From: an archaeon
Lineage (GTDB): Archaea > Undinarchaeota > CAZHTU01 > JBDRCC01
Assembly (NCBI GenBank): GCA_043822065.1
Contig: JBDRCC010000020.1
Span: 1 to 64,000 of the forward strand
Direction: 5' to 3'
DNA: 64,000 bases
Made by a program: the position numbers and the translations under genes. The notes beneath the pieces were generated by a model that was given only the letters and a program-made list of their open reading frames with translations, had not been told where the DNA came from and made no database searches. Of the stretch, positions 32,843 to 41,208 are shown one piece after another (positions within the stretch are counted from its first letter, which is position 1; each line of letters opens with the position of its first letter).

Positions 32843-34135
32843 ATGGGAAAAACAGAGGGCATAATTCGGCGTGACAAGAGAGTTATCTCGCCATCTTTCG
32901 CACGCTCATCGCCCGTGGTCTTTGAAAAAGGGAAAGGCTGCTACCTGTGGGATGTTGAAGGCAAGAAGTACCTGGACTTCCAGAGCTCCGTCACAGTGTG
33001 CGGCGTCGGCTACCAGAACCCGGATGTCAAAGCTGCAATCCGCAGCCAGCTGGACAAGCTGATGAACTGCAACTTCCCGGACTACTACTCCGAGCTGCCT
33101 GTGAAGGTTGCTGAAAAGCTGGTCACCAAGGTACCGATTCCAGGCCAGAAAAAGGTCTTTTTTGCAAACTCCGGCACCGAGTGCGTCGAGTGCGCGCTCA
33201 AGCTTGCGCGCTGGCATACCGGGAAGACAAACCTAATAGGGTTCTATGGGGACTTCCACGGCAGGAGCTACGGAGCGGTCAGCCTGACCTGCTCGAAAAA
33301 GCTCCAGCACCAGGGCTTCGAGCCGCTGCTGCCGGGCGTGAAGCACAGCCACTTTGCATACTGCTACCGCTGCCCCCTTAACCTGGAGTACCCAGGGTGC
33401 GGTGTCGCTTGCGCGGATTACCTGGAAGAGGTTGTGCTAACCGATTCTCCGCCAGAAAACACGGCTGGGCTCATCTTTGAGCCAATACAGGGCGAGGGAG
33501 GGTACATAGTCCCACCCAAGGAGTTCCTCCCGCGGGTGCAAAAAATCTGCAACCGGAACAAAGTCCTTTTCATCAGTGATGAGGTCCAGACCGGGCTGTG
33601 CCGGACTGGCAGGTGGTCTGCATCAGAGGTCTTCAAGATAAAGCCCGACGTTGTCCTGCTGTCCAAGTCAATAGCCAACGGCATGCCCTTCGGGGCGGTG
33701 ATTGCGAAAGAGAAATACATGCGCTGGCCCTCCGGGAGCCACTCCAACACCTTCGGCGGGAACGCGCTCGCATCAGCTGCGTCGCTCGCCGTGATAAATT
33801 ATATGGAGAAAAAGCGGCTGTGGAAGAATTCAGAACAGGTGGGCAAATTCGCGATGGAGCGGCTGGAGAGGATGAAGGAAAAATACCCGATAATCGGCGA
33901 TGTGAGGGGGAAAGGGCTCATGATTGGCGTTGAATTCATTAAGGACAGGAAGAAGACGCCGGCAGTGAAGGAACGGGACAAGATTGTGAAAACCGCCGTC
34001 CTGGAGGGCTTAATCCTTCTCGGCTGCGGCAAGAGCGTAATCCGGATAGCCCCGCCGCTTACCATAACCGAGGCGGAGATGGAAAAGGGGCTCAACTTGT
34101 TTGAGAAAGCGTGCAAGAGCGTGCGGACGTCCTAA
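32843..34135 (+). CDS. Class III PLP aminotransferase (acetylornithine/GABA aminotransferase family)
   Basis: NSGTE, FHGRS, EPIQGEGG, DEVQTG..RTG, LSKSIANG, SNTFGGN. Confidence 0.92.
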   Translation: MGKTEGIIRRDKRVISPSFARSSPVVFEKGKGCYLWDVEGKKYLDFQSSVTVCGVGYQNPDVKAAIRSQLDKLMNCNFPDYYSELPVKVAEKLVTKVPIPGQKKVFFANSGTECVECALKLARWHTGKTNLIGFYGDFHGRSYGAVSLTCSKKLQHQGFEPLLPGVKHSHFAYCYRCPLNLEYPGCGVACADYLEEVVLTDSPPENTAGLIFEPIQGEGGYIVPPKEFLPRVQKICNRNKVLFISDEVQTGLCRTGRWSASEVFKIKPDVVLLSKSIANGMPFGAVIAKEKYMRWPSGSHSNTFGGNALASAASLAVINYMEKKRLWKNSEQVGKFAMERLERMKEKYPIIGDVRGKGLMIGVEFIKDRKKTPAVKERDKIVKTAVLEGLILLGCGKSVIRIAPPLTITEAEMEKGLNLFEKACKSVRTS

Positions 34136-35097
34136 AACGCAGTTTTAGCCTTTAGTCCCTGGCCCCGTAGACTGATTTCAGCCATCACGCACTTGCCGTG
34201 CACGACCTCGATGCCATTGTTTTTGCTGAAACCGATGGCTTCTCCCGATTCCGAGCTAGGCTGCATCCACACCTTCTTTATTTCTGCGTCCTTGCACGCC
34301 CTGACGATTTTTTCCGTGACCTGCGGCGAGACGACAATGTCCACAACATCCGGCTTCTTCGGCAGGCTCTTCAGGTCAGGGTAGCACTTGCGCTCCAATA
34401 TCTTTTCCGCATTAGGATTAACTGGATAAGCCTCGTATCCCTGCGCCAGCAGGAACTTGAAAATTTTATGGCCGTATTTTCTAAAATTTGCCGAAGCCCC
34501 CACTACGGCATAAACATTTGTTTTCTCAAGAAACTTTTTTACCAGCGCCGCGTCGTCCTCGAAGCTCATCCCCATCTCATGCCACTCTGCGCCGCCGTGG
34601 GTGGACGCCGACTTGCCAGTGTAAACAAAGCCGAGCTTCCTGTAGTAATCAACCATGTTTTCCTTGCATATCAGCAGGACCTTTTCTTTTCCGAGCCCTT
34701 TGGAAATCTCCACAAACCTCTCGACCAGCCGCCTCGAAACCCCAAGCCCCCTGAACTCCGGCAGGACTGCGACAGTGAACACGACAACATTCTTCCCGCC
34801 CGGAACATGGCCAACCATGCCCTTCAGCTCCTCTGCACTGATGTCCTCCTTTTCTATTGTGGCGCCGTTTATTATGCCGATTATTTTCCCGCCCAGCTCG
34901 GCGACAAGAAATCCCTCTGGGAACAGCTCAATCCTTTTCCTGAACTTTTCCTCCGAAGCCACCTCAGGTGGAGGATAGCACCTGTCCTCAACAATCCACG
35001 CTGCATGCAAATCAGCCAGCCGCACCTGCCTGATGATTATCTCGTCCGGGCTCACCCCAATGCCCTCAGAAGCAGAGGTCACGTTTGCCATCTTCAA
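34132..35097 (-). CDS. GNAT N-acetyltransferase fused to a CoA-binding domain
   Basis: VAVLPEFRGLG, YYRKLGF, STHGGAEWHEM; then AVVGAS...YPVNP...VWMQP. Confidence 0.85.
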   Translation of the reverse strand: MKMANVTSASEGIGVSPDEIIIRQVRLADLHAAWIVEDRCYPPPEVASEEKFRKRIELFPEGFLVAELGGKIIGIINGATIEKEDISAEELKGMVGHVPGGKNVVVFTVAVLPEFRGLGVSRRLVERFVEISKGLGKEKVLLICKENMVDYYRKLGFVYTGKSASTHGGAEWHEMGMSFEDDAALVKKFLEKTNVYAVVGASANFRKYGHKIFKFLLAQGYEAYPVNPNAEKILERKCYPDLKSLPKKPDVVDIVVSPQVTEKIVRACKDAEIKKVWMQPSSESGEAIGFSKNNGIEVVHGKCVMAEISLRGQGLKAKTAF

Positions 35098-36454
35098 GCT
35101 CCTTAAGCCGCTTTATGGTCAGCTCCCGCCTCTTTTTGCCCTCAATGCCCTTTAGCTGGTCCTCTATGACATTGTCCCCGAGTTTCCTCAGCTCTTCATC
35201 TGCATAGTCCAGCAGGTACTCCTTGAAAGTCAGAAGCGAGTTCGGCAGGCAGAAGTTCCTAATCAGCCCCGGTTTTGCCATGTCCATGAAGTCCTTTCCA
35301 GTCCTTCCCAGCCGGTAGCAGGCGGTACAGAAGCTCGGGCTGTAGCCCATCTTGCAGATGTCCTCCACAATTTCAGCCATTGACCTTGAGTCATGAAGCG
35401 TGAACTGCTCCGCATCCCCTTTGCTGTCCTCCGAATACCCGCCGGGGTTCGTCCGCGAGCCCGCGCTTATCTGCGAGATGCCCAAGCCGAAGACCTCGTT
35501 CCGCATCTTTGCAGTTTCCCTTGTAGACAGAATCATCCCAGTGTATGGGACCGCCAGCCTGAGTATTGCAACCATCTTCTTGAAGTCGCCATCCGAAACA
35601 GGCGCCGGCGGCGTGCATGCGGCGGGCGCGTTCAGCGCCGGCTCGAGCCGCGGGACGGAAATCGTGTGCGGTCCGACGCCATACTTCTCGTCAAGGTGCT
35701 TCGCGTGGTATAACAATCCCATGATCTCAAACTTATAATCATAAAGCCCGAACAGCGCGCCAATCCCGACGTCGTCAATCCCACCCTCCTTGGCGTTATC
35801 CATCGCATATAGCCTGTTCAGGTAGTGCGACTTCGGCCCAGAGACATGCATCTTTTCATACGTCGGGCGGTGGTAGGTCTCCTGGAACTCCTGGTATGTC
35901 CCTATCCCCTTCGCTTTGAGCCTCCTGTAGTTCTCGACGGTCTGCGGGGCAATGTTGATGTTAACCCGCCGTATCTCCCCCTTCCCGACCTTCGTCGAAT
36001 AAACAGTGTCAATAGCGTTCTCGAGGTACTCAATGTTCGCGGTGTTGTTGTCTTCTCCAGCGACAAGCAGGAGCCGCTTGTGTCCCTCCTTTTCGAGGAG
36101 CTCGACCTCGCGCCTTATTTCATCCGTTGACAATACCTTCCGTTTCAGCTCCTTGTTGTCCTTCCTGAAGCCGCAGTAAAGGCAGTTGTTTACGCAGACG
36201 TTCGTCAGGTAAAGCGGCGCAAAAAATACCAGCCTCTTGCCGTAAATATCCTCCTTTATCTTCCGCGCCGCAGTGAAAATCTTCTGTATTACTTCTTTGT
36301 CCTCTGTCTGGAGCAGGACGGCTGCCTCCGCCGGCGCCAGCCCCTTCAGCTTGAGCGCCTTTTCGACAACAGCAAGCGCTTCCGCGTGTGAAGCCTTCTT
36401 CCCCCTGGCAAGCTCTTCCTCTATTTTTTTCTGGTCAATGAAGCTTTCCATCAT
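35066..36454 (-). CDS. hydG: [FeFe]-hydrogenase maturase HydG (radical SAM)
   Basis: FAPLYLTNVCVNNCLYCGF, FQETYH, VGPHTISVPR, C-terminal CTAC-x22-C auxiliary cluster motif. Confidence 0.93.
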   Translation of the reverse strand: MMESFIDQKKIEEELARGKKASHAEALAVVEKALKLKGLAPAEAAVLLQTEDKEVIQKIFTAARKIKEDIYGKRLVFFAPLYLTNVCVNNCLYCGFRKDNKELKRKVLSTDEIRREVELLEKEGHKRLLLVAGEDNNTANIEYLENAIDTVYSTKVGKGEIRRVNINIAPQTVENYRRLKAKGIGTYQEFQETYHRPTYEKMHVSGPKSHYLNRLYAMDNAKEGGIDDVGIGALFGLYDYKFEIMGLLYHAKHLDEKYGVGPHTISVPRLEPALNAPAACTPPAPVSDGDFKKMVAILRLAVPYTGMILSTRETAKMRNEVFGLGISQISAGSRTNPGGYSEDSKGDAEQFTLHDSRSMAEIVEDICKMGYSPSFCTACYRLGRTGKDFMDMAKPGLIRNFCLPNSLLTFKEYLLDYADEELRKLGDNVIEDQLKGIEGKKRRELTIKRLKELEDGKRDLCF

Positions 36455-37740
36455 AATCCCAAGTCCGTCGGAGCCCTTCCCAGCCTCTTCAGCAGGGCTA
36501 CGGTCTCATCGACGCTGTCCGCAGCCTCCGAGCCGCTTCCTGCCTTGTCCGGGTATATTGAATACAGCATCTTGTACTTTTTAGGCGTGACGTTAACCAT
36601 CAGCGAGTTCCCGCCAGACTTAAGCCCCTTCTCCTTCCCTTCCCTGCCAAGTGTCTCGACAGCAGTCGTTACAAGTATCTTCGCGTCCGGCTGCATAAGC
36701 CTTGAAACAGCGAGCGCCTTCATAGCCAGCTCCAGCGGCGGCTGCGCCTCCTTTCCCAGCGGCGTGTCAGGGTGCGGGATGAACGGCCCGAAGGAGTACA
36801 TCTCAGTCCCGAGCTCCTTTGTAAGCGCGATATCATTAACCAAGTCATCTTCCGTCTGCCCAGGAAGCCCAATCAGCCCCCCTGTCGCGATAAGGTAGCC
36901 CATCTTTCCAATCTCGCGTATCAGCTTCACCTTGTCTTCGAGCTTTTCTCCGGGGTGCAGCTTTGCATAAAGCTTAGGATTCGATGTCTCAAATCTCATC
37001 AGGCACGCCCTTGCGCCGGCGTCATAGAACTTCCTGTACGATTCCGCCGGCCTGTCCCCGAAGCTCACGAAAATCAGCGCACTGCACCTCTTCCAAACCT
37101 CGCGCACTACCCTTGCCAGGTCTTCGTCCGAATAATAGTCATCCTCGCCTGACTGTAAAACAAACGCTTTGAACCCAAGCTCCGTCGACGCCTTTTCCGC
37201 GGCTGCTATAATCTCGTCTGGCTCCATCCTGTACCTCTTCAACTCCTTGTTTCCTGCCCTCAGCCCGCAGTACTGGCAGTTCTGCTTGCAGTAGTTTGAG
37301 AACTCGATTATCCCGTGGACGCAGCATGCGTTCCCAAGAGCCCGGTGCCTCACCTGGTTTGCAGTCTCGTACAGCAGGCGGAGCTCGTTTTTGTCGGAAG
37401 TCTCCATCAGCCTGAGCCCGTCAGCCAAGCCCAAGTCAGGCGTCTGAGACGCCCTGTTGATTATCCGCCTAAACTCGCCAGAAACCTTTATGTCGTGGAC
37501 CTCTGCCTGCGCCTCGTCAGCTCCCTTCAGCTGGAAGAACAGCTCCCTCCATTCCTTTAATATCTCAAGCGCCTCATCCCCAGGTATCTTCCCCACGATA
37601 AAACCGCCCTGGGCGTAGACATATTCGCCAACTTTAGGCATTATAAGGTCCGCCCTTGCTTTCCTTATCTCGCCAAAATACTCAACATCAGCGTTCTGCC
37701 CGCTTATCGCAGCAACTCTGCCGGGTATCGCATAGCACAT
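36451..37740 (-). CDS. hydE: HypC/HupF-like domain fused to [FeFe]-hydrogenase maturase HydE
   Basis: N-terminus MCYAIPGRV...VGEYVYAQGGF; GIIEFSNYCKQNCQYCGLR, LQSGED, ETSN..LY..LHP, GPFIPHPDTPL, YSIYP. Confidence 0.88.
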   Translation of the reverse strand: MCYAIPGRVAAISGQNADVEYFGEIRKARADLIMPKVGEYVYAQGGFIVGKIPGDEALEILKEWRELFFQLKGADEAQAEVHDIKVSGEFRRIINRASQTPDLGLADGLRLMETSDKNELRLLYETANQVRHRALGNACCVHGIIEFSNYCKQNCQYCGLRAGNKELKRYRMEPDEIIAAAEKASTELGFKAFVLQSGEDDYYSDEDLARVVREVWKRCSALIFVSFGDRPAESYRKFYDAGARACLMRFETSNPKLYAKLHPGEKLEDKVKLIREIGKMGYLIATGGLIGLPGQTEDDLVNDIALTKELGTEMYSFGPFIPHPDTPLGKEAQPPLELAMKALAVSRLMQPDAKILVTTAVETLGREGKEKGLKSGGNSLMVNVTPKKYKMLYSIYPDKAGSGSEAADSVDETVALLKRLGRAPTDLGL

Positions 37741-37800
37741 GCTATCCCTTTACTACCGTATTATAAATAATTTCTGCCCAGCCGCAACGCCGATGCAATA

Positions 37801-37856
37801 AGTTAGGCAAAACTAACTCTACAGAACATTTATATACAAGTTAGCCTAAACTAACT
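37801..37856. promoter_or_regulatory. Two DtxR-type operators flanking the TATA box of dtxR-feoAB
   Basis: AGTTAG-gcaaaa-CTAACT (37801-37818) and AGTTAG-cctaaa-CTAACT (37839-37856) around tttatata. Confidence 0.85.
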
Positions 37857-37861
37857 CTCCA

Positions 37862-38272
37862 ATGAAAAACAAAACGCGAGAGGACTACCTTCGTGCAATA
37901 TTCCTAATCTACGAAACCCAAACTAGAAACCTGGCTGGGGTAAAATCAGTCGATATCGCGAAATCCCTGGCGGTTTCAAAGCCGAGCGTTTCCAGCATGG
38001 TTTCCAAGCTTTCAAAGGAGGGGCTTGTCCGGGCTCATCCCTATGGATTGGTATTCCTTACAAAGAAAGGGATCTCTGAGGCAAAGAAAATAACAAAAAA
38101 GCACAGGGTAATCGAGGTTTTCCTGACTGATATCCTTGGCTACGCGATTAACGAAGCAGAAGACGAGGCTCACCGGCTTGAGCACGCGTTTTCTGACGAG
38201 TCCATAAAACGGCTCTCTAAGTTCCTAAACAATCCACGGAGGTGCCCGCATGGCAACAGAATCTATAGTTAG
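37862..38272 (+). CDS. DtxR/MntR family metal-dependent repressor
   Basis: EDYLRAI, SVSSM, HRVIE.FL, EAHRLEHA, CPHG. Confidence 0.93.
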   Translation: MKNKTREDYLRAIFLIYETQTRNLAGVKSVDIAKSLAVSKPSVSSMVSKLSKEGLVRAHPYGLVFLTKKGISEAKKITKKHRVIEVFLTDILGYAINEAEDEAHRLEHAFSDESIKRLSKFLNNPRRCPHGNRIYS

Positions 38273-38519
38273 CAAGGTCCCCCTTACCTCCATAAAACCC
38301 GGCGAAAAAGCAGTTATAAAACAGATACATGGGGGCGTCGCCGCAACACAGCGGCTTACGGATATGGGGCTTACAATCGGAACAGAAATTGAAGTTACGA
38401 AATGTGCCCCCTTCCTGGGCCCGGTCTGCATACGCGTCCGCAACTCCTGCCTTGCGATAGGCTATGGGCTCGCTTCAAAGATTTCTGTGGTGAAGAAACT
38501 TGAACGAAAAAAAGCTTAG
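38250..38519 (+). CDS. feoA: Ferrous iron transport protein FeoA
   Basis: RLTDMGLTIG, APFLGP, LAIG..LASKI. Confidence 0.92.
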   Translation: MATESIVSKVPLTSIKPGEKAVIKQIHGGVAATQRLTDMGLTIGTEIEVTKCAPFLGPVCIRVRNSCLAIGYGLASKISVVKKLERKKA

Positions 38520-40419
38520 GATAGTGCTCGCTGGGAATGCCAACGTCGGCAAGAGCGTCCTCTTCAACGCCTTAACCGGCATGCACCAGCACATAGGCAA
38601 CTGGCCCGGAAAGACCATAGAAAAGGCAGAGGGCACTTTCTACTTCCATGACTACTTAATAGACGTCATAGACCTCCCAGGCATCTATTCCCTCTCCACC
38701 TTTTCAATCGAGGAGAAGATTTCCAGGGATTATATCGCCTTAGAAAATCCAGACGTCGTAATAAACGTTATAGATGCCTCTGTGCTTGAACGAAACCTTT
38801 TCTTCACCCTCCAGCTAATCGAGATGGGCGCCCCTCTCGTCGTTGCACTAAACCAGGTGGACCTAGCCAAGAAGAAAGGGATAACAATCGACCACGAAAA
38901 ATTATCAGAATTGCTTGGCGTCTCTGTTGTTCCGACGGTTGCAATCAAAGACAAAGGCATATCCGCGCTTCTTGCAGAGGTCGTTTCAGTTTCCAAACAA
39001 AAACAAAGGAGGCATGAGCTAAAATACGGCAAACAGGTCGAAGAGAAGATATCAGAAATAAGCAGGCTTCTCAAAAAACACCCACCTCTCTACCCTCCAA
39101 GGTGGATGGCAATCAAGCTCCTGGAAAAAGACCATGAAATAACAAAGCAGGCAGACTCCTCAATAGTCTCAAGGGCGGGGGTTCTCTCAAAACAGCTCGA
39201 GAAAATCCATGGCGAGACCTCTAGTGCAGTGATATCTGGCGAGCGGTACTTCATCGCGTCTGGCGTTGCAAAAAAGACGATGAAAAAAATCGAATACAAG
39301 GAGACCCGTTCCGACCGGGTCGACTACTGGGCAACCCACAGGATATTTGGCTATCCTATAATGCTCTTTTCCGTCCTTTTAACGTTCTTCGCCATCTTTT
39401 CCTTTGGCAACTATGCCTCCGAACTAATGGTCTCCTGGTTCGCTAACAGCCACCTCCTTGTTAACCTGGTCTTCGGCAGCGGCGCGTTATCCGAAATTGT
39501 ATGGAGCGCATTGGAGGGGCTGATTGCCGGCGTCACCATCGCACTTCCATACATCATCCCTTTCTACGTCGCCCTCTCTCTTCTCGAGGACACGGGATAC
39601 CTCTCAAGGGTCGCCTTCCTAACGGACAAGATAATGCACCAAATCGGATTGCACGGAAAGGCGTTTATCCCGCTCATACTCGGCTTTGGGTGCAACGTCC
39701 CTGCCTGCCTTGGCTGCAGGATAATGGAGCGCTACCGTGAGCGGTTCATAACCGCTTTTCTCGCGACCCTCGTGCCGTGCGCCGCGAGGACGGTCATCAT
39801 TATGGGGCTGGTTGCCGCGTATGTCGGCTTCGAATGGGCGATTGCCCTCTACCTTTTCGACATACTCATAATCTTCTTGCTGGGGAAGCTTGCAAACCGC
39901 GTGATGCCAGGCGAGCCGGTCGGGCTCATACTCGAGATGCACGCCCTCAGGAAGCCCTCAATAAAAATAGCGTTCAGCCAGGCGTGGTTCCGCGTGAAGG
40001 ACTTTATAACCGTGGCATTTCCAATAATCATAGCCAGCAGCATCGTAATAAAAATATTCGATATCTTCGGCCTTCTTACAAAACTCTCTGACCTGCTTTC
40101 GCCCGTAACGGTAGGATGGCTCGGCCTTCCATCCATAGTCGGGCTAATCCTAATCTTCGGGATACTGCGAAAGGAGCTTATCCTAATCATGCTCGCAACA
40201 CTTGTCGGCACCACCAACTTCGCTTCGGCGCTGAGCCCGCTGCAGATGCTAACTCTTGCCATTGTTACCATGCTCTACGTACCATGCGTCGCAACAATAG
40301 TGGCCCTGAAGAAGGAATTTGGCTGGAAAAAGGCAATCGGGATATCCGCTTTCGAGGTATTTTTTGCGATACTTGTTGCAGGCCTCGTGATGAGGGTGCT
40401 GGCGTTCGCTGTTTTTTGA
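38500..40419 (+). CDS. feoB: Ferrous iron transport protein FeoB
   Basis: [34 protein letters not shown]. Confidence 0.96.
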
Positions 40420-40425
40420 TTTCTT

Positions 40426-41208
40426 TTAAAGCACTGGCCTTCTTTTCTTCATCTCAGCCATGTCCATGACCTCTACTTTGGGTTTTATCCCCTCGTAATA
40501 AGTCCTCACATTAAGCCCCTCAAACTTTTTCTTTAGTTTGGTTATCTCCTCTTCAGAGACTACTTCAATGCCTTTTCTCTTCCAGGGGACGTTTACGTAG
40601 GTCATATCCGGTTTTATCTTCCTCGCAAGCGCGGCCATTTTAGCAGCTGAACCCTTATTCTCATTCAAAAGCATCATCTGGAGGCAGAACTTCCCCTGAA
40701 ATCCCTTCCTGAATTTCCCTATTCCTTCGACCACTTCATCAAATTCGATCCCCATTGCCGGCCGGTTGACTTTCTTGAATGTTTTTCCATCAGCCGCATC
40801 AAGGGTCGCAACGACCATGTCCATCTTTTCCAGGTCATTTCTGACATCCCCCCTATGTAGAAGGCTTCCGTTCGTGAGAATTGCAACTGGTGTTTTCTCA
40901 TGCTTCGTGCCCTTCAGCGTTTTTCTTATCTCGTCCACCATCTCTCCAAGATTTTCCGCAAGCGTCGGCTCTCCAGTCCCAGAAAAAGTTATTATGTCAA
41001 ATTTTGGGTTTTTCTTGAGCGCATCCTGCAGGTCTTTACCAACAGCCCCTGTCCCGACAAAGACCCGCCTCGCGGCAGTTTTTTCAGTAGTGCTTCCCAG
41101 CTGGCAATAAATGCAGTCAAACGTGCACACTTTCCGCCTTGATATGGGGTCGACTCCAAGAGACCTCCCGAGCCGCCAGGAAGGCACTGGCCCGTATATC
41201 GTGCTCAT
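40426..41208 (-). CDS. Radical SAM Fe-S oxidoreductase
   Basis: YGPVPSWRLGRSLGVD, CTFDCIYC, GTGEPTL. Confidence 0.9.
   Translation of the reverse strand: MSTIYGPVPSWRLGRSLGVDPISRRKVCTFDCIYCQLGSTTEKTAARRVFVGTGAVGKDLQDALKKNPKFDIITFSGTGEPTLAENLGEMVDEIRKTLKGTKHEKTPVAILTNGSLLHRGDVRNDLEKMDMVVATLDAADGKTFKKVNRPAMGIEFDEVVEGIGKFRKGFQGKFCLQMMLLNENKGSAAKMAALARKIKPDMTYVNVPWKRKGIEVVSEEEITKLKKKFEGLNVRTYYEGIKPKVEVMDMAEMKKRRPVL

What the first reader, a model, noticed from the sequence alone, without database searches (positions are those of the whole stretch)
35066..37740. HypC-HydE fusion plus HydG without local hydF/hydA: a hybrid [NiFe]/[FeFe] maturation module in an archaeon
Seen: HydE carries an N-terminal domain of about 70 aa starting MCYAIPG, with VGEYVYAQGGF where HypC has VGD.VLVH.GF (His replaced by Gln). 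It is coupled to a complete HydG with the auxiliary CxxC-x22-C motif. No hydF, hydA or hypDEF is in these 64 kb. Established: HypC binds Fe(CN)2CO through its N-terminal Cys for [NiFe] enzymes, HydG makes an Fe(CO)2(CN)-cysteine synthon, HydE processes it, and HydF is the usual scaffold. Inference: the HypC domain may carry the Fe-CO/CN unit in place of HydF, or route HydG products to a [NiFe] or other metal centre.
Basis: partly seen in the sequence, partly recalled or inferred. Interest (0 to 1): 0.82.

Follow-up and report, generated by a model that had tools for sequence, protein, structure and literature searches.

The report
Radical-SAM maturation module for [NiFe] hydrogenase
A HypC-like iron chaperone fused to a HydE-like radical-SAM enzyme, paired with HydG, appears to replace the universal HypD/HypE/HypF machinery for building the iron-carbonyl-cyanide centre of [NiFe] hydrogenases in this archaeon and many other microbes.

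Summary
Window 36451-37740(-) encodes a 429-aa HypC-like domain fused to a HydE-like radical-SAM domain. It overlaps by 4 nt a complete HydG at 35066-36454(-).

The fusion is a large, highly conserved family: 120 of 120 best homologs are fused, and 371 stretches were confirmed in species-representative genomes of DPANN archaea and many bacterial phyla.

The module tracks [NiFe] hydrogenases, not [FeFe] ones. In 50 fusion-bearing genomes:
- HypD, HypE and HypF: 0/50 each
- [NiFe] large subunit: 49/50
- HydG: 47/50
- HypA: 33/50
- HydA: 7/50
- HydF: 5/50

In 38 of 80 loci the fusion lies within 10 kb of [NiFe] structural genes, often directly after the maturation protease and HypA.

All five genomes tested that have HydA and HydF also carry a second, unfused HydE beside hydF.

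The fused HydE forms its own clade. It keeps the catalytic residues of T. maritima HydE but changes R54, T134 and R155, and it gains an invariant Cys.

The window's genome (archaeal, 82% complete) has two intact [NiFe] large subunits and HypA with a MinD-type ATPase. No HypD/E/F, HydA or HydF was found in it.

Best reading, about 0.68: a HypDEF-independent, tyrosine-derived route to the [NiFe] iron centre. No description turned up in ten literature searches. All evidence is computational.

The parts
36451..37740 (-). Gene for the 429-aa HypC-like / HydE-like fusion protein
   Evidence: ORF. Pfam HupF_HypC, Radical_SAM and BATS. TIGR03956 HydE scores 284.3 bits, over its cut-off. AlphaFold2 model has pLDDT 91 and pTM 0.91.
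37516..37740 (-). HypC-like domain (residues 1-75): N-terminal Met-Cys, five strands, then a long helix
   Evidence: PF01455 covers residues 1-63 at 48.4 bits. PDB HypC 2z1c matches at E 1e-8 over residues 1-72. Secondary structure is E7-13, E16-21, E24-29, E40-44, E47-52, H54-78. Invariant residues are C2, Y3, I5, P6, Y21, G23, E24, G38, Y40, Q44, G46.
36481..37458 (-). HydE-like radical-SAM domain (residues 95-420), with CX3CX2C at Cys151/155/158 and the clade signature C140, H142, F224, A245
   Evidence: Foldseek to T. maritima HydE 3cix gives TM 0.93 normalised to the target, rmsd 1.5 A, 38% identity. Signature residues.
35066..36454 (-). HydG (462 aa), tyrosine-lyase radical-SAM enzyme with the C-terminal CX2CX22C auxiliary-cluster motif
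   Evidence: TIGR03955 scores 565.4 bits against a cut-off of 312.15. Motifs at residues 87 and 376. 4-nt overlap with the fusion gene.
37800..37858 (+). Two copies of a 21-nt palindromic box (AAGTTAGSCWAAACTAACTCT) in the divergent intergenic region. Possible operators for the neighbouring DtxR-like repressor. Whether they belong to the module is inferred, not shown.
   Evidence: Sequence read. Two matches in 64 kb against 0.01 expected.
37862..40419 (+). Context genes, divergently transcribed: DtxR-type iron-dependent repressor (37862-38272), FeoA (38250-38519), FeoB (38500-40419). They suggest a link to iron supply. They are not conserved next to the module elsewhere.
   Evidence: Pfam assignments. 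None of these families is among the recurrent neighbour clusters in the 80 loci.

Best explanation
HydG and the HypC-like/HydE-like fusion form a two-gene module. It makes the iron-carbonyl-cyanide unit of [NiFe] hydrogenases and delivers it, taking the place of HypC, HypD, HypE and HypF.

Proposed steps:
1. HydG cleaves tyrosine to CO and CN- on its dangler iron and forms [Fe(II)(Cys)(CO)2(CN)]. This is established for HydG homologs and inferred here.
2. The HydE-like domain takes this synthon and strips the cysteine backbone by 5'-deoxyadenosyl radical chemistry. This is established for T. maritima HydE, and the catalytic residues are conserved here.
3. The canonical enzyme is proposed to dimerise two Fe(I) units for HydF. 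Here the altered product pocket (R54->His, T134->Phe, R155->Gly/Ala, new Cys140) and the tethered HypC-like domain instead capture a mononuclear Fe(CO)x(CN)y unit on Cys2. Inferred.
4. The HypC-like domain docks on the apo large subunit at its L1/L2 cysteines and hands the iron over. This rests on a predicted complex, so it is inferred.
5. HypA plus a MinD-type ATPase insert nickel, and a protease trims the C-terminus. Those genes are present.

In this archaeon the clients would be the group-3b-like hydrogenase on contig C22 and the Mbh-like hydrogenase on contig C7.
For: Family:
- 120 of 120 listed homologs (49-100% identity, 97-100% coverage) carry PF01455 plus PF04055.
- 371 of 391 pattern-matched stretches in species genomes were confirmed as relatives.

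Phyletic pattern in 50 fusion genomes (50 of the 80 loci, chosen before any result):
- HypD 0/50
- HypE over cut-off 0/50
- HypF over cut-off 0/50
- [NiFe] large subunit 49/50
- HydG 47/50
- HypA 33/50
- HydA 7/50
- HydF 5/50
- Standalone HypC in only 2/50
- Two of the 50 records are titled whole chromosomes, G047 and G076.

Controls:
- HypD, HypE and HypF ring over cut-off in exactly the four named control genomes that also have a [NiFe] large subunit.
- Among 41 genomes (40 kin plus the window's own), HypD occurs in 15. Fourteen of those also gave a standalone HypC-like hit.
- G002, in the same order as the window's genome, has a canonical hypC-hypD-hypF cluster.

Synteny:
- A [NiFe] large subunit lies within 10 kb in 38/80 loci, HycI protease in 30, small subunit in 28, HypA in 20.
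- The typical order is beta-gamma-small-large-protease-HypA-fusion-HydG. The fusion also follows Mbh-like operons.
- 35 of 39 neighbouring large subunits keep both Cys motifs.

Paralogy:
- All 5 of 5 genomes with HydA and HydF have two HydE genes. The unfused one lies within 20 kb of hydF in 4 of the 5. The fused one lies within 1 kb of a [NiFe] large subunit in 3 of the 5.
- They have essentially one HydG each.
- The fused sequences fall on one side of a branch with 96% support (core 100%). All 5 canonical HydEs fall on the other side.

Residues:
- Kept: the equivalents of M224, M291, K309, T268/269, R159 and E161.
- Changed: R54->H in 27/27 (R in 32/34 other HydEs), T134->F in 26/27 (T in 32/34), R155->G/A in 26/27 (R in 29/34), and Cys140 in 27/27 (0/34).
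- A QM/MM study names R54, T134, R155 and T269 as contacts of the CN ligands of the Fe(I) dimer (PMC11826987, passage read).

Rosetta stone: HypC-HydE-HydG triple fusions exist, at 906, 881 and 909 aa.

Predicted complex of residues 1-80 with this genome's own 3b large subunit:
- Score 0.75, best of 3 controls 0.00. The mark was reached by 58 of 80 solved complexes and 2 of 110 mismatched pairs. These counts hold only roughly because my own alignments were used.
- The runs agree in at least 74% of contacts, and the partner's pLDDT is at least 77.
- The interface includes large-subunit residues 60-64 (L1 Cys62) and 410 (L2 Cys), and partner residues 3-6 and 42-52.
- If a like complex has been solved, the pass may come from memory.

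This genome: two large subunits with intact L1 and L2 motifs, and HypA followed by a ParA/MinD-type ATPase.
Against: - No biochemical evidence exists for any step.
- The ligand count does not match. HydG's product carries two CO and one CN, while the canonical [NiFe] site carries one CO and two CN. An exchange step or a non-canonical site must be assumed.
- In this window the module sits next to iron-uptake genes, not next to hydrogenase genes, and the genome is only 82% complete.
- 42 of 80 loci show no hydrogenase gene within 10 kb, although many of those contigs are short.
- 3 of the 50 genomes had no HydG over cut-off, and 1 of 50 had no large subunit.
- G037, a closed kin genome, has a 3b-like large subunit and a HypC-like gene but no HypD, HypF or HydE/G-like hit. 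Lack of HypD therefore does not always come with this module.
- The 50 genomes are related to one another and were reached through the fusion itself, so the tallies are not independent samples.
- The AlphaFold model gives no distances that I could read, so whether Cys2 lies near the HydE pocket is untested.
Confidence: 0.68

Rival explanations
1. The module is an ordinary [FeFe]-hydrogenase H-cluster maturation set. Its HydA and HydF partners lie in the unassembled 18% of the genome or are too divergent to recognise.
For: Both proteins pass the NCBIfam HydE and HydG equivalog cut-offs. The genome is 82% complete. 7 of 50 fusion genomes do have HydA. Archaeal [FeFe] hydrogenases exist and mostly lack known maturases (PMC11216029, passages read).
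Against: HydA was found in 7/50 and HydF in 5/50 fusion genomes, and neither was found in two records titled chromosomes. Where HydA and HydF exist, a separate unfused HydE is present as well (5 of 5), within 20 kb of hydF in 4 of them. The fused clade lacks R54, T134 and R155. The fusion neighbours [NiFe] genes, not hydA.
Confidence: 0.05
2. The module builds an Fe-CO/CN or other organometallic unit for a client that is not a hydrogenase. Its link with [NiFe] genes would then reflect shared regulation or shared lifestyle.
For: 42 of 80 loci show no hydrogenase gene within 10 kb. In this window the neighbours are iron-uptake genes and a GNAT/CoA-binding protein. HydE-like and HydG-like radical-SAM enzymes have relatives with other roles, such as PylB, BioB, ThiH and HmdB.
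Against: The domain fused to HydE is specifically a HypC homolog. HypC's only known role is iron delivery to [NiFe] large subunits (established knowledge). 49/50 genomes have a large subunit and 0/50 have the otherwise universal HypD/E/F. The gene sits in the operon position of hyp genes, after the protease and HypA. The predicted docking is at the L1/L2 cysteines.
Confidence: 0.1
3. The module supplies only part of the ligand set, for example CO, whose anaerobic source in the Hyp pathway is unknown. An unrecognised analog of HypD/E/F would supply cyanide and scaffolding.
For: The CO:CN ratio of the HydG synthon does not fit Fe(CN)2(CO). AIR-synthase-like proteins with weak HypE similarity exist in 8/50 genomes, at 76-126 bits and below the cut-off. 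One also exists in this genome.
Against: No HypF was found to make the carbamoyl precursor (0/50). The weak HypE-like hits are absent from 42/50 genomes. HydG makes cyanide as well as CO (abstract of PMC11826987).
Confidence: 0.1
4. For this genome alone: canonical hypCDEF exist in the missing 18% of the assembly, and the fusion is redundant or serves another purpose.
For: Completeness is 82.35%. In kin genomes hypC, hypD and hypF can sit in one cluster that a single gap could remove, as on contig C15 of G002.
Against: 0/50 other fusion genomes have HypD, so coexistence would be unprecedented in this sample. The only HypC-family hit in this genome is the fusion.
Confidence: 0.04

Closest known systems
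HydE/HydF/HydG maturation of the [FeFe]-hydrogenase H-cluster
   Same: HydG is a full member, with both cluster motifs. The HydE-like domain has the HydE fold (TM 0.93 to 3cix). It also keeps the equivalents of M224, M291, K309, T268/269, R159 and E161. Diatomic ligands from tyrosine are therefore expected.
   Different: Most genomes have no HydF scaffold and no HydA client. The HydE moiety is a separate clade with R54, T134 and R155 replaced, an added Cys, and a HypC-like domain fused at the N-terminus. Its gene neighbours are [NiFe] genes.
HypC/HypD/HypE/HypF assembly of Fe(CN)2(CO) for [NiFe] hydrogenases
   Same: The client appears to be the same: large subunits with canonical L1/L2 cysteines and C-terminal extensions. 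The carrier is of the same type: a HypC fold with N-terminal Cys2. HypA, a protease and a MinD-type ATPase are retained.
   Different: There is no HypD scaffold and no HypE/HypF carbamoyl-phosphate route to cyanide (0/50 each). The conserved His of HypC is an invariant Gln, and Leu3 is Tyr. The ligand source would be tyrosine by radical-SAM chemistry.
Chlamydomonas-type HydEF fusion (recalled, not tested here)
   Same: HydE is fused to the protein that receives its product.
   Different: There the partner is HydF, at the C-terminus, and the target is an [FeFe] hydrogenase. Here it is a HypC-like domain at the N-terminus.
HypX, the aerobic CO source for [NiFe] hydrogenases (recalled)
   Same: It is an accessory route that supplies a diatomic ligand outside the core Hyp set.
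   Different: HypX adds to HypCDEF and makes only CO from a formyl donor. This module would replace HypCDEF altogether.

Membership tests
HypC/HupF (PF01455, TIGR00074) | Profile match over the family cut-off | tested here: met
   Pfam scores 48.4 against 28.5 and 52.5 bits in the genome scan. NCBIfam TIGR00074 scores 45.7, just under its cut-off of 48. PDB HypC 2z1c matches at E 1e-8.
HypC/HupF (PF01455, TIGR00074) | N-terminal Met-Cys; Cys2 is the essential iron ligand | tested here: met
   MCYAIPG; C2 is invariant in 24/24 sequences.
HypC/HupF (PF01455, TIGR00074) | Conserved His in the GDYVLVHxGF motif (His51 of E. coli HypC; numbering recalled) | tested here: not met
   Gln44 is invariant in 24/24 fusions. 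Five canonical archaeal HypCs have His at that place.
HypC/HupF (PF01455, TIGR00074) | Small beta-barrel followed by a C-terminal helix | tested here: met
   The model has five strands between residues 7 and 52, then helix 54-78, at pLDDT 81-94. The domain alone was not fold-searched.
HypC/HupF (PF01455, TIGR00074) | Works with HypD | tested here: not met
   HypD was not found in this genome or in 0/50 fusion genomes.
HydE (TIGR03956) | Equivalog profile score over the cut-off | tested here: met
   The window protein scores 284.3 against 254.6. Other fused members are borderline at 243-259 bits, with 2 of 5 over the cut-off.
HydE (TIGR03956) | Radical-SAM CX3CX2C motif and the HydE TIM-barrel fold | tested here: met
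   Cys151/155/158. TM 0.93, rmsd 1.5 A and 38% identity to 3cix.
HydE (TIGR03956) | Residues of the T. maritima enzyme tied to synthon processing (M224, M291, K309, T268/269, R159, E161) | tested here: met
   Conserved in 24-27 of 27 fused sequences. K309 is Lys or Arg in 25/27. Roles are taken from passages of PMC11826987.
HydE (TIGR03956) | Residues contacting the CN ligands of the Fe(I) dimer (R54, T134, R155) | tested here: not met
   His in 27/27, Phe in 26/27 and Gly/Ala in 26/27 fused sequences. Other HydEs have R in 32/34, T in 32/34 and R in 29/34.
HydE (TIGR03956) | Co-occurrence with HydF and HydA | tested here: not met
   HydF in 5/50 and HydA in 7/50 fusion genomes. Neither was found in this genome.
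HydG (TIGR03955) | Equivalog score, radical-SAM motif and C-terminal CX2CX22C auxiliary-cluster motif | tested here: met
   565.4 bits against a cut-off of 312.15. Motifs at residues 87 and 376.
Canonical [NiFe] maturation system (HypABCDEF plus protease) | Fe(CN)2(CO) branch: HypC, HypD, HypE and HypF present | tested here: not met
   In this genome there is no HypD, HypE or HypF over cut-off, and HypC occurs only as the fusion.
Canonical [NiFe] maturation system (HypABCDEF plus protease) | Nickel branch: HypA plus a HypB-type NTPase | tested here: met
   HypA scores 80.1 bits. It is directly followed by a ParA/NUBPL-type P-loop ATPase. GTPase-type HypB (TIGR00073) was not found. Equating the MinD-type ATPase with HypB rests on recalled knowledge of Thermococcales.

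The most novel reading that the evidence does not exclude
All diatomic ligands of these [NiFe] hydrogenases come from tyrosine through HydG. The HypC-HydE protein is scaffold and carrier in one chain. That makes this a third, HypD-free maturation pathway that bridges the [FeFe] and [NiFe] systems. In the boldest form, the enzymes carry a non-canonical Fe(CO)2(CN) site, or the module is an ancestral state from which the two modern pathways diverged.
Probability: 0.2. Interest if true: 0.95.

Novelty: new variant of a known kind. Interest (0 to 1): 0.88.

Why it matters
[quoted passage not shown] The anaerobic source of the enzyme's CO ligand is a long-standing open question.

Here, hundreds of species across both prokaryotic domains have intact [NiFe] hydrogenases but none of HypD, HypE or HypF. 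They all share a conserved HydG plus HypC-HydE pair, often in the hydrogenase operon.

If the proposed function holds:
- [NiFe] maturation has a second, radical-SAM route.
- The two hydrogenase classes share biosynthetic chemistry.
- 'HydE/HydG' annotations in genomes without HydA should be reread. This bears on the reported scarcity of maturases in archaea and on metabolic inference for DPANN, Omnitrophota, Margulisiibacteriota, anammox Planctomycetota and others.
- A two-gene module might simplify heterologous production of [NiFe] hydrogenases.

The idea can be tested directly with standard expression, infrared spectroscopy and isotope labelling.

Tried and rejected
- Sequencing runs: none was listed for the two genes and no RNA holder was listed, so nothing can be said about expression.
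- Rfam on the window gave only two tRNAs.
- The sigma-70 promoter and terminator scan is uninformative for an archaeon and was not used.
- Literature: ten full-text searches found no paper linking HypC with HydE, or HydG/HydE with [NiFe] maturation. 'HypC-like' never co-occurred with HydE or HydG. An eleventh search failed on a term that was too short. Papers seen:
  - PMC11216029, passages only
  - PMC9431212, passages only
  - PMC10936187, passages only
  - PMC11826987, abstract and passages
  - all others as search listings only
- Supplementary Table S3 of PMC11216029 lists archaeal maturase hits. I could not see it, and it may already include members of this family under the name HydE.
- [FeFe] maturation was considered and rejected as the main role (see rivals).
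- Assembly or gene-calling artefact was rejected: 120/120 homologs are fused at 97-100% coverage.
- The putative protease ORF of this genome (C22:47796-48161) gave no Pfam hit, so I do not call it one.
- The large subunit is not more similar to module-linked large subunits (median 37%, top 47%) than to those of HypD-bearing archaea (31-41%). There is no sign that hydrogenase and module travel as one unit.
- Distances within the AlphaFold model (Cys2 to Cys140 or Met314) could not be read with the tools.

Full report
**1. What is in the window**

Two co-directional genes on the minus strand overlap by 4 nt, ATGA.

The upstream gene, 36451-37740, encodes 429 aa.
- Residues 1-63 match Pfam HupF_HypC at 48.4 bits against a cut-off of 28.5.
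- Residues 95-420 match the NCBIfam HydE equivalog at 284.3 bits against 254.6.
- The NCBIfam HypC model scores 45.7, just under its cut-off of 48.
- Against solved structures, residues 114-424 match T. maritima HydE at 263 bits. Residues 1-72 match T. kodakarensis HypC at E 1e-8.
- An AlphaFold2 model built on 24 homologs is confident, with pLDDT 91 and pTM 0.91. It shows five strands and a long helix, followed by the barrel.
- The barrel superposes on HydE 3cix with TM 0.93 normalised to the target, rmsd 1.5 A and 38% identity.

The downstream gene, 35066-36454, is a complete HydG at 565.4 bits against a cut-off of 312.15. It has CX3CX2C at residue 87 and CX2CX22C at residue 376. That includes Gln where canonical HypC has His.

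**2. The genome**

The window is the first 64 kb of contig C20 of a 1.03-Mb assembly in 22 contigs, 82.35% complete. It is archaeal, because ribosomal protein L15e is present. The closest homolog of the fusion, at 76% identity, is named by NCBI as from a Candidatus Undinarchaeota archaeon. That is a hint to the lineage, not a proof.

Whole-genome family scans gave these results.

| Family | Result |
|---|---|
| HydA | none |
| HydF | none over cut-off |
| HypD | none |
| HypE | none; best 56.9 bits is an AIR-synthase-type protein |
| HypF | none; best 36.9 bits |
| HypC | only the fusion |

The genome does encode two [NiFe] large subunits with intact L1 (RICGIC..H) and L2 (DPC..C) motifs. One sits in a group-3b-like operon on C22. 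The other sits in an Mbh/Mrp-like operon on C7. It also encodes a full-length HypA, directly followed by a ParA/MinD-type ATPase. The nickel-insertion half of [NiFe] maturation is therefore present. The iron-carbonyl-cyanide half is missing, apart from this module.

**3. The fusion is a large, conserved family**

- All 120 listed homologs (49-100% identity, 97-100% coverage) carry both Pfam domains.
- In an alignment of 24, the residues C2, Y3, I5, P6, Y21, G23, E24, G38, Y40, Q44 and G46 of the HypC-like part are invariant.
- A scan of one genome per species matched 391 stretches, of which 371 were confirmed as relatives. The best 80 were kept.
- Archaeal hosts are Aenigmatarchaeota, Altiarchaeota, Micrarchaeota and Nano-/Woesearchaeota.
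- Bacterial hosts are Omnitrophota, Margulisiibacteriota/WOR-1/Saganbacteria, Planctomycetota (including Scalindua and Brocadiia), Gammaproteobacteria, Elusimicrobia, Brevinematales, Patescibacteria, Nitrospiraceae and Thermodesulfobacteriota.
- None of the 40 nearest kin genomes held has the fusion.
- Triple fusions of HypC, HydE and HydG also exist: 906 and 881 aa and a 909-aa frame in G073.

**4. Gene neighbourhood**

I called and clustered ORFs in the 80 loci, within 10 kb on each side where the contig allowed. Pfam confirmed the identities of the recurrent clusters.

| Neighbour | Loci (of 80) |
|---|---|
| [NiFe] large subunit | 38 |
| HycI-type maturation protease | 30 |
| Small subunit | 28 |
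| Gamma subunit | 25 |
| Beta subunit | 24 |
| 80-aa HypA | 20 |
| Rex-like regulator | 14 |

- The usual order is beta-gamma-small-large-protease-HypA-fusion-(Rex)-HydG on one strand. In other loci the fusion follows an Mbh-like operon, again after the protease and HypA.
- The fusion ORF could be labelled in 75 loci, and 33 of those have a large subunit, 30 on the same strand.
- 72 of the labelled loci have an upstream gene in view. In 22 of those, that gene is the protease, HypA or the large subunit.
- A HydG-sized radical-SAM gene is adjacent in 33 of the 75.
- 35 of 39 neighbouring large subunits keep both cysteine motifs, and at least three of the other four are short ORFs.
- No [FeFe] hydrogenase cluster appears among the recurrent neighbours.

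**5. Phyletic pattern**

I took the genomes behind 50 of the 80 loci. They were chosen for contig length and taxonomic spread before any result, because the tool takes at most 50. They were scanned family by family.

| Family | Genomes over cut-off (of 50) |
|---|---|
| HypD | 0 |
| HypE | 0 (best 126 bits against a cut-off of 251.6) |
| HypF | 0 (three partial hits to the C-terminal half) |
| [NiFe] large subunit | 49 |
| HydG | 47 |
| HypA | 33 (41 at E<=0.001) |
| HydA | 7 |
| HydF | 5 (one more just under) |
| HypC family | 50, but standalone in only 2 |

- Two of the 50 records are titled chromosomes, G047 and G076. They show the same pattern.
- G050 is flagged as unpublished. It is one row in each tally. 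Without it the counts read 0/49, 0/49, 0/49, 48/49, 46/49, 32/49, 7/49, 5/49 and 49/49.
- Controls: HypD, HypE and HypF ring over cut-off in exactly the four named control genomes that also have a [NiFe] large subunit.
- Among 41 genomes (40 kin plus the window's own), 15 have HypD at E 1e-117 to 1e-146. Fourteen of those also gave a standalone HypC-like hit.
- G002, in the same order as this genome, has hypC, hypD and hypF together on one contig.
- G033 has the large subunit, hypF, hypC and hypD together.

The same kinds of hydrogenase are thus served by the canonical set in some lineages and by this module in others. The 50 genomes were reached through the fusion and are partly related. The tallies describe a pattern and are not a statistical test.

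**6. The fused HydE is a distinct paralog**

- All five genomes tested that have both HydA and HydF contain two HydE genes.
- The unfused one (292-365 bits) lies within 20 kb of hydF in four of the five, and in three of those hydG and/or hydA is close too.
- The fused one (243-259 bits) lies within 1 kb of a [NiFe] large subunit in three of the five.
- HydG is essentially single-copy in them. One HydG seems to feed two HydE paralogs.
- In a maximum-likelihood tree of 66 HydE sequences, columns filled in fewer than half of the rows were dropped, which probably removed the HypC part. All fused sequences lie on one side of a branch with 96% SH-aLRT support. Their core of 23 has 100% support.
- Five unfused or N-terminally different sequences fall on the fused side. 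Four of those share the clade signature described below.
- All five canonical HydEs from the double-HydE genomes lie on the other side.

I mapped positions onto T. maritima HydE and compared 27 fused sequences with 34 other HydEs.

| T. maritima position | Fused clade (of 27) | Other HydEs (of 34) |
|---|---|---|
| M224 | kept, 27 | M in 33 |
| M291 | kept, 27 | M in 32 |
| K309 | Lys or Arg in 25 | K or R in 30 |
| T268/T269 | kept in 24 each | T in 30 / 29 |
| R159, E161, L157, V105 | kept, 27 each | conserved |
| R54 | His in 27 | Arg in 32 |
| T134 | Phe in 26 | Thr in 32 |
| R155 | Gly/Ala in 26 | Arg in 29 |
| Position 52 | Cys in 27 | Cys in 0 |

A QM/MM study of HydE names M224 as the ligand of the Fe(I) intermediate and K309 as part of the radical relay. 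It names R54, T134, R155 and T269 as contacts of the CN ligands of the Fe(I) dimer (PMC11826987, passages read). The fused clade therefore keeps the machinery for processing HydG's synthon. It has rebuilt the place where the canonical product is held.

**7. Docking**

A complex prediction paired residues 1-80 of the fusion with this genome's own 3b large subunit.
- The score was 0.75 and the best of three controls was 0.00.
- That mark was reached by 58 of 80 solved complexes and 2 of 110 mismatched pairs. The counts hold only roughly, because my own alignments were used.
- The three runs agree in at least 74% of contacts, and the partner's pLDDT is at least 77.
- The confident interface includes large-subunit residues 60-64, which hold L1 Cys62, and residue 410, the L2 Cys.
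- On the partner side it includes residues 3-6, next to Cys2, and residues 42-52, which hold the YAQGG motif.
- This supports binding but does not show it. If a HypC-large-subunit complex has been solved, the pass could come from memory. I know of none, but that is recall.

**8. Mechanism proposed**

- Established for homologs: HydG makes [Fe(II)(Cys)(CO)2(CN)], and HydE uses it as substrate (abstract of PMC11826987).
- Inferred here: the fused enzyme performs the same radical chemistry. It retains a mononuclear Fe-CO/CN unit on Cys2 of its own HypC-like domain, perhaps with Cys140. That would mirror the HypC-HypD two-cysteine ligation, which I recall from the literature. It then delivers the iron to the large subunit. 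HypA, the MinD-type ATPase and a protease finish the job.
- The invariant His-to-Gln change may reflect loss of a step that the canonical HypC performs with HypD. That is speculation.
- The main chemical gap is the ligand ratio. The synthon has two CO and one CN, while the canonical site has one CO and two CN.

**9. Local context**

Upstream and divergent lie a DtxR-type repressor, FeoA and FeoB. The 121-nt intergenic region holds two copies of a 21-nt palindromic box. These are the only two in 64 kb, against 0.01 expected. This suggests iron-responsive control. These neighbours are not conserved elsewhere.

**10. Novelty**

Ten full-text searches found nothing that links HypC with HydE, or HydG/HydE with [NiFe] maturation. 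The Cell 2024 survey of archaeal [FeFe] hydrogenases reports that most archaea with HydA lack HydEFG. It does not mention HypC in the passages I read. Its Table S3 was not visible to me and may list members of this family as HydE. Public annotation calls these proteins HydE, biotin synthase or radical SAM protein. I rate the finding as a new variant built from known parts. It is of high interest because it challenges the universality of HypCDEF and is directly testable.

Noticed in passing
window 37800-37820 and 37838-37858 (+): Two copies of a 21-nt palindromic box (AAGTTAGSCWAAACTAACTCT) lie between the fusion gene and the divergent dtxR-feoA-feoB genes. They are the only two in the window, against 0.01 expected. 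They are likely operators of the DtxR-type repressor. AT-rich TATA-like stretches lie nearby.
   Followed up: partly
window 34132-35097 (-): A GNAT acetyltransferase fused to a CoA-binding domain (321 aa) lies directly downstream of hydG. Its longest reading frame overlaps the end of hydG by about 30 nt, so it may be co-transcribed. It is not among the recurrent neighbours in the 80 related loci.
   Followed up: no
window 40426-41208 (-): A 260-aa radical-SAM protein that fits no NCBIfam family. The best match is a TatD-associated radical-SAM model at 42.5 bits against a cut-off of 129.7.
   Followed up: no
G037:C1:93726-97266 (kin genome, one contig, 99% complete): It has a 3b-like [NiFe] large subunit (311 bits to the window genome's) and a standalone HypC-like gene 2 kb away. 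No HypD, HypF or HydE/HydG-like hit was found. This is a second kind of HypD-less [NiFe] genome that this module does not explain.
   Followed up: partly
L101:5851-6093 and 19 other related loci: The HypA next to the fusion is often only about 80 aa and matches just positions 1-69 of the 112-position HypA model. It seems to lack the zinc-finger half. The window genome's own HypA (contig C7) is full length at 144 aa.
   Followed up: no
L080:9281-10000 and 7 other related loci: A 239-aa membrane protein of the DsbD_2 family sits between the maturation protease and the fusion gene in 4 of these loci. It may be a metal transporter. Its function is not established.
   Followed up: no
proteins P0150, P0156, P0157, P0185: These HydE-family proteins of about 440 aa have N-terminal extensions of about 90-130 aa that do not align with the HypC-like domain. 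They fall among canonical HydEs in the tree, so HydE has other fusion partners.
   Followed up: no
G055:C51:14648-14839: One fusion-bearing Altiarchaeota genome also has a standalone HypC-family gene (67 bits) immediately beside a [NiFe] large subunit, again without HypD.
   Followed up: no
G063:C1:886905-901509 (Omnitrophota, locus L040): A single 15-kb stretch holds hydF, an unfused hydE, hydG, hydA, the HypC-HydE fusion and a [NiFe] large subunit. Both hydrogenase classes and both HydE paralogs are side by side. It would make a good test case.
   Followed up: partly
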